A stretch of 64,000 bases of DNA from Candidatus Woesearchaeota archaeon (GTDB lineage Archaea > Nanobdellota > Nanobdellia > Woesearchaeales > JACJVW01), in NCBI GenBank assembly GCA_020637435.1, contig JACJVW010000003.1, positions 4,787 to 68,786 of the forward strand. The letters run 5' to 3'. Position numbers and translations under genes: made by a program. The notes below the pieces were generated by a model that was not told the origin of the DNA, did not search any database, and worked only from the letters and a program-made list of their open reading frames with translations. Shown in pieces: positions 7,840-11,365 of this stretch; within the stretch, counting starts at the first letter, position 1; the number at the start of each line of letters is the position of its first letter.

Positions 7840-9234
7840 ATGGATATTTTCCTGACTAATACACTTGGCAAGACCAAGCAACGATTCACACCTATCACTC
7901 CGGGAAAGGTCAGTATATACACCTGTGGTCCTACAGTGTATCATTATGCTCATATAGGAAACCTTCGTTCTTTTGTGTTTGCTGACCTGCTTAAACGCAT
8001 GTTCATCGCAAATAACTACAAGGTAGAGCATGTGATGAATATTACTGATGTAGGTCATCTGACGAGCGATGCGGATGACGGTGAGGACAAGCTTGAGAAG
8101 GGGGCTAGGCGTGAAGGAAAGACTGTCTGGGAAGTGGCTCAATATTATACCGACCATTTTATGGAAGACTTGAGCAGGCTTAACATTATGCTCCCCGACC
8201 ACATGCCGAAGGCTACCGACCACATTGCTGAGATGATAAGTATCATCAAGAACCTAGAGGAGAAAGGATATACGTATATCGCTGAAGGTAATGTCTATTT
8301 CGATACGCAGAAATATGCTGAGTATGCTGATTTTGCAGGACTGAAGCTTAATGAGGAAGATGCTCGGTCACGTGTGGATGAGGATGAACATAAGAAGAGT
8401 CCCTTCGATTTTGTCCTTTGGTTCACCCGTTACAAATACAGTTCTCATGAGATGGAATGGGACAGTCCCTGGGGCCGAGGGTTTCCGGGCTGGCATATTG
8501 AATGCAGCGCAATGTCGACAAAATATCTTGGAGATCATTTTGATATCCATACCGGAGGCATTGATCACATTCCTGTGCATCATACGAATGAGATCGCTCA
8601 GAGCACTTGTGCGTTTGGCCATAAATGGGTCAACTACTGGATGCACAACAATTTCCTTGTGCTTGGCGAAGATGAGAAGATATCAAAGTCGAAAGATAAT
8701 TTTCTTCGCTTGCAGACATTGATGGACAAAGGCATCTCTGGTCTTGATTATCGGTATTTCCTTCTTGGCGCTCACTACCGTAAACCTCAGACATTCTCAT
8801 TTGAAGGGCTTGAAGCAGCAAAGACTAGTCTTCGCAAGCTTGTGCAGAAGTACAAGGATGTTTCCGTCCGTGATGGACGTAATGAAGATGAATTCGATAT
8901 CTTCTATACGAAATTCCTGGAAGCGATGAATGATGACTTGAATACTCCTCAGGCACTGGCAGTGTTCTGGGAGACCGTGCAAGACACCAACATTGATGTT
9001 GGGACGAAGAGGTCGCTGTTTGATGCGTATGATGCTGTGCTTGGCATAGGGCTTAAGGAACAGGCAGAACGAAAAGAGGAAATCCCGGATGATGTCCTTG
9101 CGCTTAAATCTGAGCGGGACAAGGCGCGGGTTTTGAAGAACTGGGCGGAATCTGACCGACTACGAGATGAGATTGTGTCTAAAGGTTTTGAAGTGCTTGA
9201 CTCTAAGGATGGTACTGAAATTAGAAAGGCCTAA
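7840..9234 (+). CDS. cysS: cysteinyl-tRNA synthetase
   Basis: YTCGPTVY..AHIGNLR, GWHIECS, HTGGIDHIPVHH.NE, KMSKS-like KISKS. Confidence 0.98.
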   Translation: MDIFLTNTLGKTKQRFTPITPGKVSIYTCGPTVYHYAHIGNLRSFVFADLLKRMFIANNYKVEHVMNITDVGHLTSDADDGEDKLEKGARREGKTVWEVAQYYTDHFMEDLSRLNIMLPDHMPKATDHIAEMISIIKNLEEKGYTYIAEGNVYFDTQKYAEYADFAGLKLNEEDARSRVDEDEHKKSPFDFVLWFTRYKYSSHEMEWDSPWGRGFPGWHIECSAMSTKYLGDHFDIHTGGIDHIPVHHTNEIAQSTCAFGHKWVNYWMHNNFLVLGEDEKISKSKDNFLRLQTLMDKGISGLDYRYFLLGAHYRKPQTFSFEGLEAAKTSLRKLVQKYKDVSVRDGRNEDEFDIFYTKFLEAMNDDLNTPQALAVFWETVQDTNIDVGTKRSLFDAYDAVLGIGLKEQAERKEEIPDDVLALKSERDKARVLKNWAESDRLRDEIVSKGFEVLDSKDGTEIRKA

Positions 9235-9319
9235 GTAAATTTAGCTGGTAATGCTATCTTGACAGCACATGGTGCGGTATTTAACAAGTTTTAAATAACA
9301 AATTTCAGCGTCATACCCT

Positions 9320-10048
9320 ATGGCTAAGCAGAATGCACATCTTTTTCTGAATAGCGTCGCGTTTGTATTAGGTTTTTCGGTGGTGTTCTCTGCGATGGGA
9401 GTATCGCTGCAGACTACTCTTTCATCGATCAGTTTTGAACTGCAGGGATTCTTGGCTAAGCTTGGAGGAATCATCATCATCTTCTTTGGTCTTTATCTGC
9501 TGAACATTGTCAAGGTCCCTTTCCTGCAGAAGGAGATCAGGATCTCTGTGCACAAGAAATTTTCATCAGCCTATATCTCATCTTTCGTTTTTGGAGCCGC
9601 GTTCGCCATCGGCTGGTCTCCCTGTGTAGGGGCTATACTCGGAGCAATACTTGCGCTTGCCATAAGCTACCCTGCGCTAGCGTTCTTCCTTATGGTTGCT
9701 TATTCGCTTGGCTTGAGCATCCCTTTTTTGATCGTTGGTTATTTTGCGGATGAAGCGAGAGGTTGGGTGAAAAAATACACCGCTTCGCTTCGCTATGCGA
9801 GCAAGGTCTTTGGGGCTATCCTCATCGTTCTAGGAGTTCTTGTCTTCACTGGCAATCTTGGTGCGATCTCCAGTCTGGAATGCACAGATCAGGGTCTTGG
9901 GAAGATCACTCACAGCCTGCTTGGTAACCAGCCTTTACATCTGGGTATCGCGTTCCTTGCAGGACTGGTCTCGTTCCTAAGCCCTTGCGTCCTGCCGCTG
10001 ATTCCGGCTTTTCTGACCTATCTGGCCTCATTGCTAGTCAAACACTAA
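9320..10048 (+). CDS. ccdA: CcdA/DsbD-family thiol-disulfide transporter, apparently circularly permuted
   Basis: GWSPCVGAILG motif mid-protein; AFLAGLVSFLSPCVLPLIP motif at the C-terminus. Confidence 0.9.
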   Translation: MAKQNAHLFLNSVAFVLGFSVVFSAMGVSLQTTLSSISFELQGFLAKLGGIIIIFFGLYLLNIVKVPFLQKEIRISVHKKFSSAYISSFVFGAAFAIGWSPCVGAILGAILALAISYPALAFFLMVAYSLGLSIPFLIVGYFADEARGWVKKYTASLRYASKVFGAILIVLGVLVFTGNLGAISSLECTDQGLGKITHSLLGNQPLHLGIAFLAGLVSFLSPCVLPLIPAFLTYLASLLVKH

Positions 10049-10079: not shown

Positions 10080-10619
10080 ATGAAAAGAGGTCAATCCTCG
10101 ACCGAATCACTGATGGTCTATGGAATAGGGTTGCTAATGATCGTAGCGGTGATAGCTTCCCTATCATTCTTCGGGGTCATCAATCCAGAATCTTTGATTC
10201 CTGGAAGCTGCTTATTTGACAGTGAACTGGAGTGTATGGACGCGACCATCGAAGGAGGCAATAAGAGTGTGCATCTCGCTTTGGTCAACAATAAAGGAAG
10301 AGCTATCGATATTCTCAATGTGTCATTGGCGTTCGCCATTCCCGATAGCTACAGGTGCAATTCTACGCGTATGATGCTTGATGCTGACGGTACTCTCTCA
10401 ACCTACACTCTTACTGATAGCATAGCAGTCGCTGGTCAATTTACGATGAACAATAGGATTCCAGAGTCTTACGGCTTTAGGATCCAGATCGAATGCGCGG
10501 ATGCTAACTGGGTGGTGGATGAGAAAGTGCAAATCAATGTAGAAGTCACTTACCGAAACAGTTATTCTGGACTTATGCACACTGCGCAGGGAACGATCAA
10601 TGCTCGTGTCGGTCAGTGA
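10080..10619 (+). CDS. class III signal peptide (archaeal type IV pilin-like) protein
   Basis: MKRGQSSTESL followed by a hydrophobic helix. Confidence 0.8.
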   Translation: MKRGQSSTESLMVYGIGLLMIVAVIASLSFFGVINPESLIPGSCLFDSELECMDATIEGGNKSVHLALVNNKGRAIDILNVSLAFAIPDSYRCNSTRMMLDADGTLSTYTLTDSIAVAGQFTMNNRIPESYGFRIQIECADANWVVDEKVQINVEVTYRNSYSGLMHTAQGTINARVGQ

Positions 10620-11365
10620 TCAAGCATACCGCAGGCGGCTTCGATGTCAGCACCGCGACTCATCCTTACAAAGCATTTGTAGCCTGTATTCCTGATTATC
10701 TCCTTGAAATGTACTAGATGAGGGCTTTTTTTGAGTGTTCCCTTTTCGTTGTATTCAATAATGTTGAAATTGGTGCTAGGGGCCCAGTCCAATGCTGCAA
10801 GCCTTCTGGCGTCCTCATCTGTGTCATTGACACTGTCTATCAAGGTGTATTGTACCATGATTCCGTTCTTCCCCCTATGCTGATGCGAGAATCTGACGAG
10901 TTCTTGCAGTCCGGCGGCATGAGGAATAAGCTTGTCACGTAGTTCCTGCGTCGACGCATGGACAGAGACGGCGATATTGTAGGGTACATCTATCAGTCTG
11001 TTAAGGTGATAGCCTACGGTGGAGAGAGTTATATGCCTATATGCGAGATTGAATTTTGTATGAATAGCTTCGATAGCAGCACTTACAGCTTTAAAATTAA
11101 GCATCGGTTCACCCATGCCCATGCATACGAGCGCTGTGGGGTTCTGACCTATCATCTGTGCTGCATCGCTAAACTGACCGATTATCTCTTCGCTATTGAG
11201 ATTGCGTCTGAACTTTCCCGTGTGGCAAAAGGTGCAACCTACCGGGCATCCGGACTGGGATGAGACACATACTGTGTATTTCTCATTTTTTGATGGGATG
11301 ATGACAGCGGTATACCCGTCATACTCCAACTTAATAGTCCCGTCGGTTGATGTTATGCTTTGCAT
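10613..11365 (-). CDS. rlmN: radical SAM RNA methyltransferase, RlmN/Cfr family, N-terminally short
   Basis: CVSSQSGCPVGCTFC (CxxxCxxC), MGMGEP, ITLSTVG, GADIEAACG. Confidence 0.85.
   Translation of the reverse strand: MQSITSTDGTIKLEYDGYTAVIIPSKNEKYTVCVSSQSGCPVGCTFCHTGKFRRNLNSEEIIGQFSDAAQMIGQNPTALVCMGMGEPMLNFKAVSAAIEAIHTKFNLAYRHITLSTVGYHLNRLIDVPYNIAVSVHASTQELRDKLIPHAAGLQELVRFSHQHRGKNGIMVQYTLIDSVNDTDEDARRLAALDWAPSTNFNIIEYNEKGTLKKSPHLVHFKEIIRNTGYKCFVRMSRGADIEAACGMLDH

What the first reader, a model, noticed from the sequence alone, without database searches (positions are those of the whole stretch)
9320..10048. Circularly permuted CcdA: the first-Cys helix sits at the C-terminus
Established: CcdA normally begins with AF.AG..SF.SPC.LP (TM1, first redox Cys), followed by TM2-6 containing W.PC.G. 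Seen: this ORF starts at the TM2-like FVLGFSVVF, has GWSPCVG centrally, and ends with AFLAGLVSFLSPCVLPLIPAFL (about 9938-10025) after a linker with an extra Cys (SLECTDQG). No TM1 is encoded upstream. Inference: a natural permutation retaining both catalytic cysteines.
Basis: partly seen in the sequence, partly recalled or inferred. Interest (0 to 1): 0.75.

Follow-up and report, generated by a model that had tools for sequence, protein, structure and literature searches.

The report
Circularly permuted CcdA membrane reductase
This archaeal gene encodes an intact CcdA-type membrane protein, which passes reducing power from the cytoplasm to the cell surface, but its first cysteine-bearing helix sits at the end of the chain; the rearrangement is real, is conserved in hundreds of relatives, arose several times, and I found no description of it in the papers searched.

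Summary
ORF 9320-10048 (242 aa) aligns to Thermus CcdA (PDB 5VKV) in two pieces. Residues 9-185 match TM2-TM6 and residues 206-236 match TM1. No TM1 is encoded upstream.

It is not a misassembly. All 120 best homologues, from Nanoarchaeota, Woesearchaeota and Pacearchaeota, share this order, and both catalytic Cys are invariant. Normal-order CcdAs about 50% identical occur in the same archaeal order and occupy the same operon slot.

The permuted protein aligns collinearly to a head-to-tail dimer of a normal relative. This fits tandem duplication, fusion and trimming at both ends.

Separate permuted clades exist in Trueperaceae and Chloroflexota. A tree needs at least 7 changes of order, and a single origin is rejected (AU p = 5e-10).

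Charge counts predict both termini inside and a 27-residue linker outside.

In relatives the gene sits beside TlpA/DipZ-like redoxins. In this genome it does not, and this copy is the most divergent of the 120. The extra Cys188 is unique to it.

The genome has thioredoxin, thioredoxin reductase, DsbA-like and DsbB-like genes, and no cytochrome c maturation genes.

Most likely it is a working thiol-disulfide shuttle. I rate it a new variant of a known kind. Earlier notes of this scan report the same arrangement in at least 19 other genomes.

The parts
9290..9297 (+). TATA-like box (TTTAAATA), centred about 26 nt before the ATG. It suggests the gene has its own promoter and a leaderless or near-leaderless mRNA.
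   Evidence: Read directly from the sequence. The promoter function is inferred and was not tested.
9320..10048 (+). Circularly permuted ccdA ORF, 242 aa plus the stop codon.
9347..9415 (+). Helix equivalent to canonical TM2 (residues ~10-32, FLNSVAFVLGFSVVF...). It is now the first, N-in signal-anchor helix.
   Evidence: Alignment to 5vkv, hydropathy, AF2 helix 2-34.
9449..9514 (+). Helix equivalent to TM3 (residues ~44-65).
9572..9667 (+). Helix equivalent to TM4 (residues ~85-116), with the GWSPCVG motif. The catalytic Cys102 is at 9623-9625.
   Evidence: Cys102 is present in 120 of 120 homologues.
9671..9745 (+). Helix equivalent to TM5 (residues ~118-142).
9797..9859 (+). Helix equivalent to TM6 (residues ~160-180).
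9860..9937 (+). Linker of 26 residues (family range 25-28), predicted to lie outside the cell. Its first half is homologous to the C-terminal tail of normal-order CcdA, and its last residues to the normal N-terminus. It holds the non-conserved Cys188 (9881-9883).
   Evidence: Alignment to a tandem dimer; low K+R content (1.1 in 27 residues) and Cys188 present in 1 of 120.
9938..10033 (+). Helix equivalent to canonical TM1 (residues ~207-238, AFLAGLVSFLSPCVLPLIPAFL). The catalytic Cys223 is at 9986-9988. It is now the last helix and ends in the cytoplasm.
   Evidence: Query 206-236 matches 5vkv residues 3-33. The block F212...L235 contains 15 invariant columns. Cys223 is present in 120 of 120.

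Best explanation
The ORF encodes a working member of the CcdA class of the DsbD superfamily in which the chain order is TM2-3-4-5-6-linker-TM1 instead of TM1-6. Inferred mechanism: as in canonical CcdA, cytoplasmic thioredoxin, kept reduced by thioredoxin reductase, reduces the Cys223-Cys102 disulfide from the inside. The pair is then exposed to the outside and reduces an extracytoplasmic thioredoxin-fold protein. The six helices keep their canonical orientations. What changes is the position of the termini and the tethering of TM1. Both termini are now cytoplasmic. The cut lies in the cytoplasmic TM1-TM2 loop. TM1 is tethered from the outer face by a ~27-residue linker to TM6, rather than from the inner face to TM2. 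The arrangement most likely arose by tandem duplication of ccdA, in-frame fusion, and loss of TM1 from copy 1 and of TM2-6 from copy 2. In this organism the protein serves general surface thiol reduction or disulfide isomerisation, not cytochrome c maturation.
For: Shown here:
- The segments are in permuted order relative to 5VKV and Pfam DsbD_TM scores 46.4 bits against a cut-off of 27.1.
- All 120 best homologues are permuted and cover 93-100% of the query.
- There are 60 invariant columns, including P101-C102 and S221-P222-C223-x-L-P-L. Both Cys are present in 120 of 120.
- 28 of 400 other genomes of the phylum carry the permuted form and about 36 carry a normal-order form 43-56% identical.
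- The permuted protein aligns collinearly to a head-to-tail dimer of a normal relative, from about residue 50 of copy 1 to about residue 37 of copy 2. Identity is 53-66%, with a single 7-residue insertion at the joint.
- K+R counts alternate along the chain: N-terminus 2.6, loop 2-3 0.5, loop 3-4 6.0, loop 4-5 0.03, loop 5-6 3.3, linker 1.1, C-terminus 1.9. In normal relatives the N-tail has 0, loop 1 has 2.2 and the C-tail 0.7.
- Permuted genes in relatives directly abut membrane-anchored AhpC-TSA/Redoxin + Thioredoxin_10 genes. Normal-order relatives hold the same slot with orthologous partners, 49% and 33% identical.
- An independent Trueperaceae permuted gene overlaps a TlpA/ResA-like redoxin gene.
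- The AF2 model has pLDDT 74 and pTM 0.68 and contains only helices, with none of the 242 residues modelled as strand. Its best PDB match is CcdA 5vkv, with probability 1.0 and TM-score 0.41-0.44.
- The genome encodes thioredoxin (WCMPC) and thioredoxin reductase. It also encodes membrane-anchored DsbA-like (CPFC) and PPIase-Trx (CPHC) proteins and a DsbB-like protein.
Against:
- In this genome the gene is not next to any thioredoxin-fold gene. Its neighbours are cysS and a pilin-like ORF.
- No DipZ-C-like redoxin was found in the assembly by tblastn, although the assembly is only 75% complete.
- This copy is the most divergent of the 120. Mean identity is 55% against 68% among the others, and 15 of 109 conserved columns are changed, though mostly conservatively.
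- No duplication intermediate (TM1-6 plus an extra TM1) was seen among the sequences I could inspect.
- The structural match to 5VKV is only moderate, with a TM-score of about 0.4.
Confidence: 0.82

Rival explanations
1. Assembly or gene-calling artefact. On this reading a contig joined two tandem ccdA copies, or a frameshift hid an upstream TM1, so the real gene has the normal order.
For: The sequence looks exactly like the middle of a tandem dimer. The exact protein is not on record in the contig index.
Against: The same order occurs in all 120 best homologues. They come from many independent assemblies and sources, including contigs of 70-118 kb. It also occurs in 28 other genomes of the phylum. 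The upstream gene is a complete cysS, followed by stops in all frames, and the window holds only one TM1 motif. The genome holds no second ccdA.
Confidence: 0.01
2. Real permuted gene, but in this particular genome it is a decaying or functionally drifting copy. It has lost its redoxin partner and no longer shuttles reducing equivalents.
For: It has no adjacent thioredoxin-fold gene, and no DipZ-C-like redoxin was found in the assembly. It is the most divergent of the 120 homologues. The two same-family genomes in the survey lack the gene.
Against: The ORF is intact and all 60 family-invariant positions are kept, including both PC motifs. The 15 deviations are mostly conservative, such as K>R, T>S, V>I and L>I. 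A TATA-like box sits at the expected distance from the start codon. Other possible acceptors exist in the genome, namely the DsbA-like and PPIase-Trx proteins. The assembly is only 75% complete.
Confidence: 0.08
3. Not a reductant shuttle. On this reading it is a small-solute exporter of the wider LysE/TauE/ArsG-like superfamily that merely shares the fold.
For: Sources name some homologues 'sulfite exporter TauE/SafE family protein'. The best NCBIfam hit is ArsG.
Against: The ArsG hit scores 42.9 bits against a cut-off of 200. Both redox cysteines sit in the CcdA-specific PC motifs and are invariant. The closest solved relative is CcdA at E = 4e-36. The conserved operon partners are extracytoplasmic CxxC redoxins.
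Confidence: 0.04

Closest known systems
Canonical CcdA (Thermus thermophilus CcdA, PDB 5VKV; B. subtilis and R. capsulatus CcdA; Pfam PF02683 DsbD_TM)
   Same: It has six hydrophobic helices and the two catalytic cysteines in the SPCxLP (TM1) and WxPCxG (TM4) motifs. It is 32% identical to 5VKV in the Foldseek structural alignment of 194 columns, and TM1 and TM2-6 each align to it by sequence. The operon partners are TlpA/ResA-like redoxins. The cytoplasmic thioredoxin and thioredoxin reductase donors are present.
   Different: The chain order is TM2-3-4-5-6-TM1. Both termini are predicted to be cytoplasmic, whereas architecture and charge suggest they are outside in the canonical form. A new ~27-residue external linker joins TM6 to TM1. 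TM1 is tethered at its outer end instead of its inner end.
Normal-order CcdA of the same archaeal order (e.g. loci L016, L021, L032)
   Same: They are 53-54% identical to this protein, and up to 66% to other members of the permuted clade, over all six helices. They occupy the same operon slot: small Trx lipoprotein, then ccdA, then a DipZ-C-like redoxin. The partners are orthologous.
   Different: The order is TM1-6 and the length is about 222-241 aa. Their C-terminal tail and N-terminus correspond to the two halves of the linker in the permuted form.
Mycobacterium tuberculosis DipZ, and DsbD/ScsB (from my own knowledge and PMC3322552)
   Same: The permuted ccdA plus the adjacent redoxin with a Thioredoxin_10 domain in relatives reproduce, as two genes, the domain set of DipZ (CcdA core, Trx-like domain, C-terminal domain). 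Normal-order relatives with C-terminal CxxC domains also occur.
   Different: DipZ, DsbD and ScsB fuse their periplasmic domains to termini that lie outside. The permuted form has both termini inside, so such fusions are topologically impossible without an extra helix. None of the permuted sequences I inspected has one.
Permuted CcdA clades of Trueperaceae (Deinococcota) and Chloroflexota (Bellilinea, Dehalococcoidia)
   Same: They have the same break point in the TM1-TM2 loop and the same order. They are also adjacent to a redoxin.
   Different: They are phylogenetically separate from the DPANN clade, and each is nested among normal-order sequences. Their linker sequences are unrelated.

Membership tests
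CcdA class of the DsbD superfamily (Pfam PF02683) | Significant match to the DsbD_TM profile and to a solved CcdA | tested here: met
   DsbD_TM scores 46.4 bits against a cut-off of 27.1. The match to 5vkv_A has E = 4e-36.
CcdA class of the DsbD superfamily (Pfam PF02683) | Two redox-active cysteines, one in the TM1 motif (SPCxLP) and one in the TM4 motif (WxPCxG) | tested here: met
   Cys223 and Cys102 are both present in 120 of 120 homologues, with flanking Pro invariant in the 31-sequence alignment.
CcdA class of the DsbD superfamily (Pfam PF02683) | Six transmembrane helices with no soluble alpha or gamma domains | tested here: met
   There are six hydrophobic segments. The AF2 model contains only helices. 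The length is 242 aa.
CcdA class of the DsbD superfamily (Pfam PF02683) | Canonical linear order TM1 to TM6, with TM1 at the N-terminus | tested here: not met
   TM1 lies at residues 206-236, after TM6. This is the variant feature. It is a difference in connectivity, not in the parts themselves.
CcdA class of the DsbD superfamily (Pfam PF02683) | CcdA three-dimensional fold, with TM1 and TM4 inside a scaffold of TM2, 3, 5 and 6 | tested here: inconclusive
   The Foldseek top hit is 5vkv with probability 1.0, but the TM-score is only 0.41-0.44 over 194 columns.
CcdA class of the DsbD superfamily (Pfam PF02683) | Genetic association with an extracytoplasmic thioredoxin-fold acceptor (TlpA/ResA/CcmG-like) | tested here: inconclusive
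   The feature is met in relatives. It is not met at this locus. Unlinked candidate acceptors exist in the genome.
CcdA class of the DsbD superfamily (Pfam PF02683) | Cytoplasmic thioredoxin and thioredoxin reductase donor system in the same genome | tested here: met
   Thioredoxin is at C4:15996-16298 and scores 106.6 bits. A TrxB-like ORF is at C5:17753-18661.
CcdA class of the DsbD superfamily (Pfam PF02683) | Transfers reducing equivalents across the membrane | not testable with these tools
   This needs genetics or biochemistry.
Natural circular permutant (by duplication, fusion and truncation) | Collinear alignment of the whole protein to a tandem dimer of a normal-order homologue | tested here: met
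   The alignment runs from about residue 50 of copy 1 to about residue 37 of copy 2, at 53-66% identity, in 2-3 blocks with a 7-residue insertion at the joint.
Natural circular permutant (by duplication, fusion and truncation) | Existence of a tandem-fused intermediate | tested here: not met
   None was found among the 150 representative hits. The longer proteins are Trx-domain fusions, not tandem cores. The sample is small, so the route of origin remains inferred.

The most novel reading that the evidence does not exclude
The permutation is not a neutral accident but a repeatedly selected design. CcdA has been cut at the same cytoplasmic TM1-TM2 loop at least seven separate times, in DPANN archaea, Deinococcota and Chloroflexota. 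Three things change each time. The chain starts with an ordinary N-in signal anchor. The broken, proline-rich catalytic helix TM1 is inserted last. This mobile 'elevator' helix is tethered from the outer face by a long flexible linker. Together these could ease membrane insertion, for example in cells with minimal insertion machinery, or could tune the elevator movement and partner access. If so, the two forms are a natural experiment on how helix connectivity constrains an elevator-type membrane redox protein.
Probability: 0.3. Interest if true: 0.75.

Novelty: new variant of a known kind. Interest (0 to 1): 0.6.

Why it matters
Natural circular permutations that can be seen at the sequence level are rarely documented in multi-pass helical membrane proteins. 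This is because every helix must keep its orientation in the membrane.

[quoted passage not shown] Nature here provides matched pairs that are about 50-65% identical and sit in the same operon slot. They differ only in which end of TM1 is tethered. The change also recurs in several phyla.

That makes two questions directly testable. One is whether the TM1 tether matters for the redox shuttle. The other is whether the order in which helices are inserted matters for folding.

There are also practical consequences:
- Profile-based annotation sees only TM2-6 of these proteins.
- The name 'cytochrome c biogenesis protein' is misleading in organisms such as this one, which lack cytochrome c maturation genes.
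- With both termini inside, the DsbD/DipZ-type fusions to external domains are ruled out for this form.

Within this scan the same arrangement has already been noted in at least 19 other genomes. This window therefore adds one more, rather divergent, member and not a first sighting.

Tried and rejected
The misassembly question was settled by conservation instead.
- The look-up of encoding contigs found no record of the exact window protein.
- The two key CcdA structure and review papers (PMC5805637, PMC7485265) are not held. The canonical N-out/C-out topology therefore rests on three things: charge counts, domain-fusion architecture (PMC3322552) and my own knowledge.
- Four literature searches that paired circular permutation or 'permuted' with CcdA, DsbD, the LysE superfamily or membrane proteins in general found no paper describing a permuted CcdA. 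The single paper containing all three terms cites them in unrelated references.
- I looked for duplication intermediates among the longer representative hits and found none.
- I looked in the own genome for the DipZ-C-like redoxin partner by tblastn and found none.
- The second DsbD_TM hit in the genome (C1:255773-257224) turned out to be an HMA / DsbD_2-like / cupredoxin-like metal protein without the PC motifs. It is not a second CcdA.
- The Cys102-Cys223 distance in the AF2 model could not be read, because coordinates are not exposed.

Full report
**1. Observation**

The ORF at 9320..10048 (+) encodes 242 aa. A phmmer search of the PDB gives one strong relative, T. thermophilus CcdA (5vkv_A, E = 4e-36). 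The match comes in two pieces in swapped order. Query residues 9-185 match chain residues 40-208 (TM2-TM6), and query residues 206-236 match chain residues 3-33 (TM1).

Pfam DsbD_TM passes its cut-off (46.4 against 27.1 bits). Its best-matching stretch covers residues 6-175, which correspond to profile positions 42-214 of 219.

- GWSPCVG, with Cys102 at nt 9623-9625.
- SFLSPCVLPLIP, with Cys223 at nt 9986-9988.
- Cys188 in SLECTDQG, at nt 9881-9883.

Upstream lies a complete cysteinyl-tRNA synthetase gene ending at 9234. The 85-nt spacer has stops in all three frames. A six-frame scan of the whole 64-kb window finds the TM1 motif only once, at 9974. A TTTAAATA box is centred about 26 nt before the ATG, which is compatible with an own archaeal promoter. 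That is a reading of the sequence and was not tested.

**2. The arrangement is real and conserved**

A search of 5.8 billion proteins returned 7,427 hits. The 120 best cover 93-100% of the query at 52-59% identity. Where a source names them, they come from Nanoarchaeota, Woesearchaeota, Pacearchaeota or 'Nanoarchaeia'. All of them have the TM4 motif near residue 100 and the TM1 motif near residue 222.

In a 31-sequence alignment 60 columns are invariant. They include P101-C102 and a block of 15 positions within F212-L235. Over all 120 sequences both catalytic Cys are present in 120, and Cys188 only in the window's protein.

The homologues come from many independent assemblies. Some lie on contigs of 70-118 kb, and one protein was found on at least 24 contigs. 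The genome holds no second ccdA. The other DsbD_TM hit (C1:255773-257224) is an HMA / DsbD_2-like / cupredoxin-like metal protein without the PC motifs.

**3. Relation to normal-order CcdA**

I searched 401 genomes of the phylum, counting the window's own.
- 28 other genomes carry a collinear, full-length (permuted) match.
- About 36 carry a close normal-order relative. In these, query residues 7-186 match at 43-56% identity, and query residues 206-237 match at 57-79% identity immediately upstream in the same ~235-aa frame. I confirmed this by translating 20 such loci.

The permuted proteins align collinearly to a head-to-tail dimer of a normal relative. The alignment runs from about residue 50 of copy 1 to about residue 37 of copy 2, at 53-66% identity, with a single 7-residue insertion at the joint. 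Three correspondences follow:
- The first half of the linker (..NQLSRxANLxFAxxLL..) is the old C-terminal tail.
- The residues just before TM1 are the old N-terminus.
- The new termini are the two halves of the old TM1-TM2 loop.

This is the pattern expected from tandem duplication, in-frame fusion and trimming at both ends. The route itself is inferred, because I found no intermediate among the sequences I could inspect.

**4. Topology**

Hydropathy shows six hydrophobic segments. The AF2 model (pLDDT 74, pTM 0.68) contains only helices. Mean K+R counts over the 120 homologues alternate along the chain:

| Region | Mean K+R |
|---|---|
| N-terminus | 2.6 |
| Loop TM2-3 | 0.5 |
| Loop TM3-4 | 6.0 |
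| Loop TM4-5 | 0.03 |
| Loop TM5-6 | 3.3 |
| Linker (27 residues) | 1.1 |
| C-terminus | 1.9 |

By the positive-inside rule this gives an N-terminus inside, a linker outside and a C-terminus inside. Normal-order relatives show 0 K+R in the N-tail, 2.2 in loop 1 and 0.7 in the C-tail, which indicates both termini outside. That agrees with normal-order proteins that carry C-terminal CxxC domains, and with the DsbD architecture, in which periplasmic domains flank the membrane core (PMC3322552).

So each helix keeps its orientation. Only the connectivity changes. TM1 is still a terminal helix attached at one end, but that end is now the outer one.

**5. Function**

In relatives the permuted gene is directly followed by a 349-374-aa membrane-anchored protein with AhpC-TSA/Redoxin/Thioredoxin_8 plus Thioredoxin_10 domains and a WTYTCINC motif; in two of the three loci the two genes overlap. 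In the closest homologue's contig the gene sits among three thioredoxin-fold genes.

Normal-order relatives occupy the same slot: small Trx lipoprotein, then ccdA, then redoxin. Their partners are 49% and 33% identical to those of the permuted genes. The two forms are therefore interchangeable in one conserved operon.

In the window's genome the context differs. The neighbours are cysS and a 179-aa pilin-like ORF. No DipZ-C-like redoxin is found in the assembly, which is 75% complete.

The genome does encode the following:
- thioredoxin (WCMPC) and thioredoxin reductase;
- a membrane-anchored DsbA-like protein (CPFC);
- a membrane-anchored PPIase with a C-terminal CPHC thioredoxin-like domain;
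- a DsbB-like protein.

It has no CcsA/CcmC/CcmF-family gene. Its CxxCH motifs lie in ORFs such as DnaJ- and UvrA-like proteins and the radical-SAM ORF of the window; none looks like a cytochrome. The likely role is general reduction or isomerisation of surface thiols, not cytochrome c maturation.

This copy is the most divergent of the 120. Mean identity is 55% against 68% among the others, and 15 of 109 conserved columns are changed. The changes are mostly conservative and spare the catalytic motifs. I take it to be functional, and give a small probability to drift after loss of its partner.

**6. The permutation is recurrent**

A search of 1.84 billion representatives found about 15 further permuted clusters among the best 150 hits, and about 100 normal-order clusters. 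Sources name permuted members from these lineages:
- Dehalococcoidia;
- Bellilinea, in a cluster of 118 members;
- Trueperaceae, where 118 of the 119 best hits other than the query itself were permuted by the motif test and the last one by eye, and which include complete chromosomes.

In the Trueperaceae locus the permuted gene overlaps an upstream TlpA/ResA-like redoxin gene.

I put permuted sequences back into the normal order in silico, dropped the junction columns, and built a careful IQ-TREE of 80 sequences over 202 columns. The results were as follows:
- The window's protein falls in a DPANN permuted clade of 13 (support 95/91).
- That clade is nested in a DPANN group (95/97) together with normal-order sequences.
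- The Trueperaceae clade is separate (100/98).
- The permuted state needs 11 changes, and at least 7 are forced by well-supported branches.
- None of 200 bootstrap trees has a single origin.
- The AU test rejects one clade (p = 4.7e-10).

All the permuted forms I saw are cut in the same loop.

**7. Comparison with what is known, and novelty**

The protein meets the defining sequence features of CcdA except the linear order. The three-dimensional test is only moderately supportive: Foldseek's top hit is 5vkv with probability 1.0 but a TM-score of about 0.4.

Four full-text searches found no paper that links circular permutation with CcdA or DsbD. Subscription journals are largely outside that library, so this is absence in the papers searched and not proof.

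Earlier AI notes of this scan describe the same permuted CcdA in at least 19 other genomes and reach the same conclusions. Some report a different, half-swapped form that I did not test. They are not independent evidence. I consulted them after my own analysis.

I rate this a new variant of a known kind, of moderate to high interest as a phenomenon. This window is one more, atypical, member of it.

Noticed in passing
window 10080-10619 (+): A 179-aa ORF starts 31 nt after ccdA and has no Pfam hit. Its N-terminus (MKRGQSSTESLMVYGIGLLMIVAVIASLSF) looks like an archaeal class III (type IV pilin-like) signal peptide. The mature part has four cysteines (by my reading of the translation, at positions 44, 52, 93 and 129). 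It could be a disulfide-bonded surface protein that is co-transcribed with ccdA.
   Followed up: partly
G000 C1:255773-257224 (+), locus L002: A 483-aa open frame scores as DsbD_TM. It is in fact a fusion of an HMA domain (CPSC), a DsbD_2/TauE-like membrane core (GFHCVAMCGG) and a C-terminal cupredoxin-like domain that ends in a Cys-rich tail. It is probably a metal-handling protein and not a CcdA.
   Followed up: partly
G000 C1, open frame of 488 aa around 618293-618490 (+), locus L044: This is a membrane-anchored protein with a SurA/PrsA-like parvulin PPIase region and a C-terminal thioredoxin-like domain (TTCPHCAW). It is an unusual fusion of a chaperone with an oxidoreductase, and a candidate acceptor for CcdA in this genome.
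   Followed up: no
G000 C1:199754-200266 (+) and C1:603730-604470 (+): This small DPANN genome has a DsbB-family protein (43.5 bits; CSLC plus a second Cys pair) and a membrane-anchored DsbA-like protein (CPFC). Alongside CcdA it therefore seems to have an oxidative disulfide-forming pathway. What re-oxidises DsbB in such an organism is unclear.
   Followed up: partly
L048 and L049 (CP070651.1, Trueperaceae MAG chromosome): Both copies of the permuted ccdA are 77% identical to the query, and they lie 1.3 Mb apart on one chromosome. I did not compare them with each other.
   Followed up: no
table, genomes G364 and G389 (same family as the window's genome): The two same-family genomes in the survey have no CcdA match at all. 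About 8% of the phylum's genomes have the permuted form and about 9% a close normal-order form. The distribution is patchy and suggests frequent loss or transfer.
   Followed up: no
window 10613-11365 (-): A radical-SAM ORF converges on the pilin-like ORF, and their 3' ends overlap by 7 nt.
   Followed up: no
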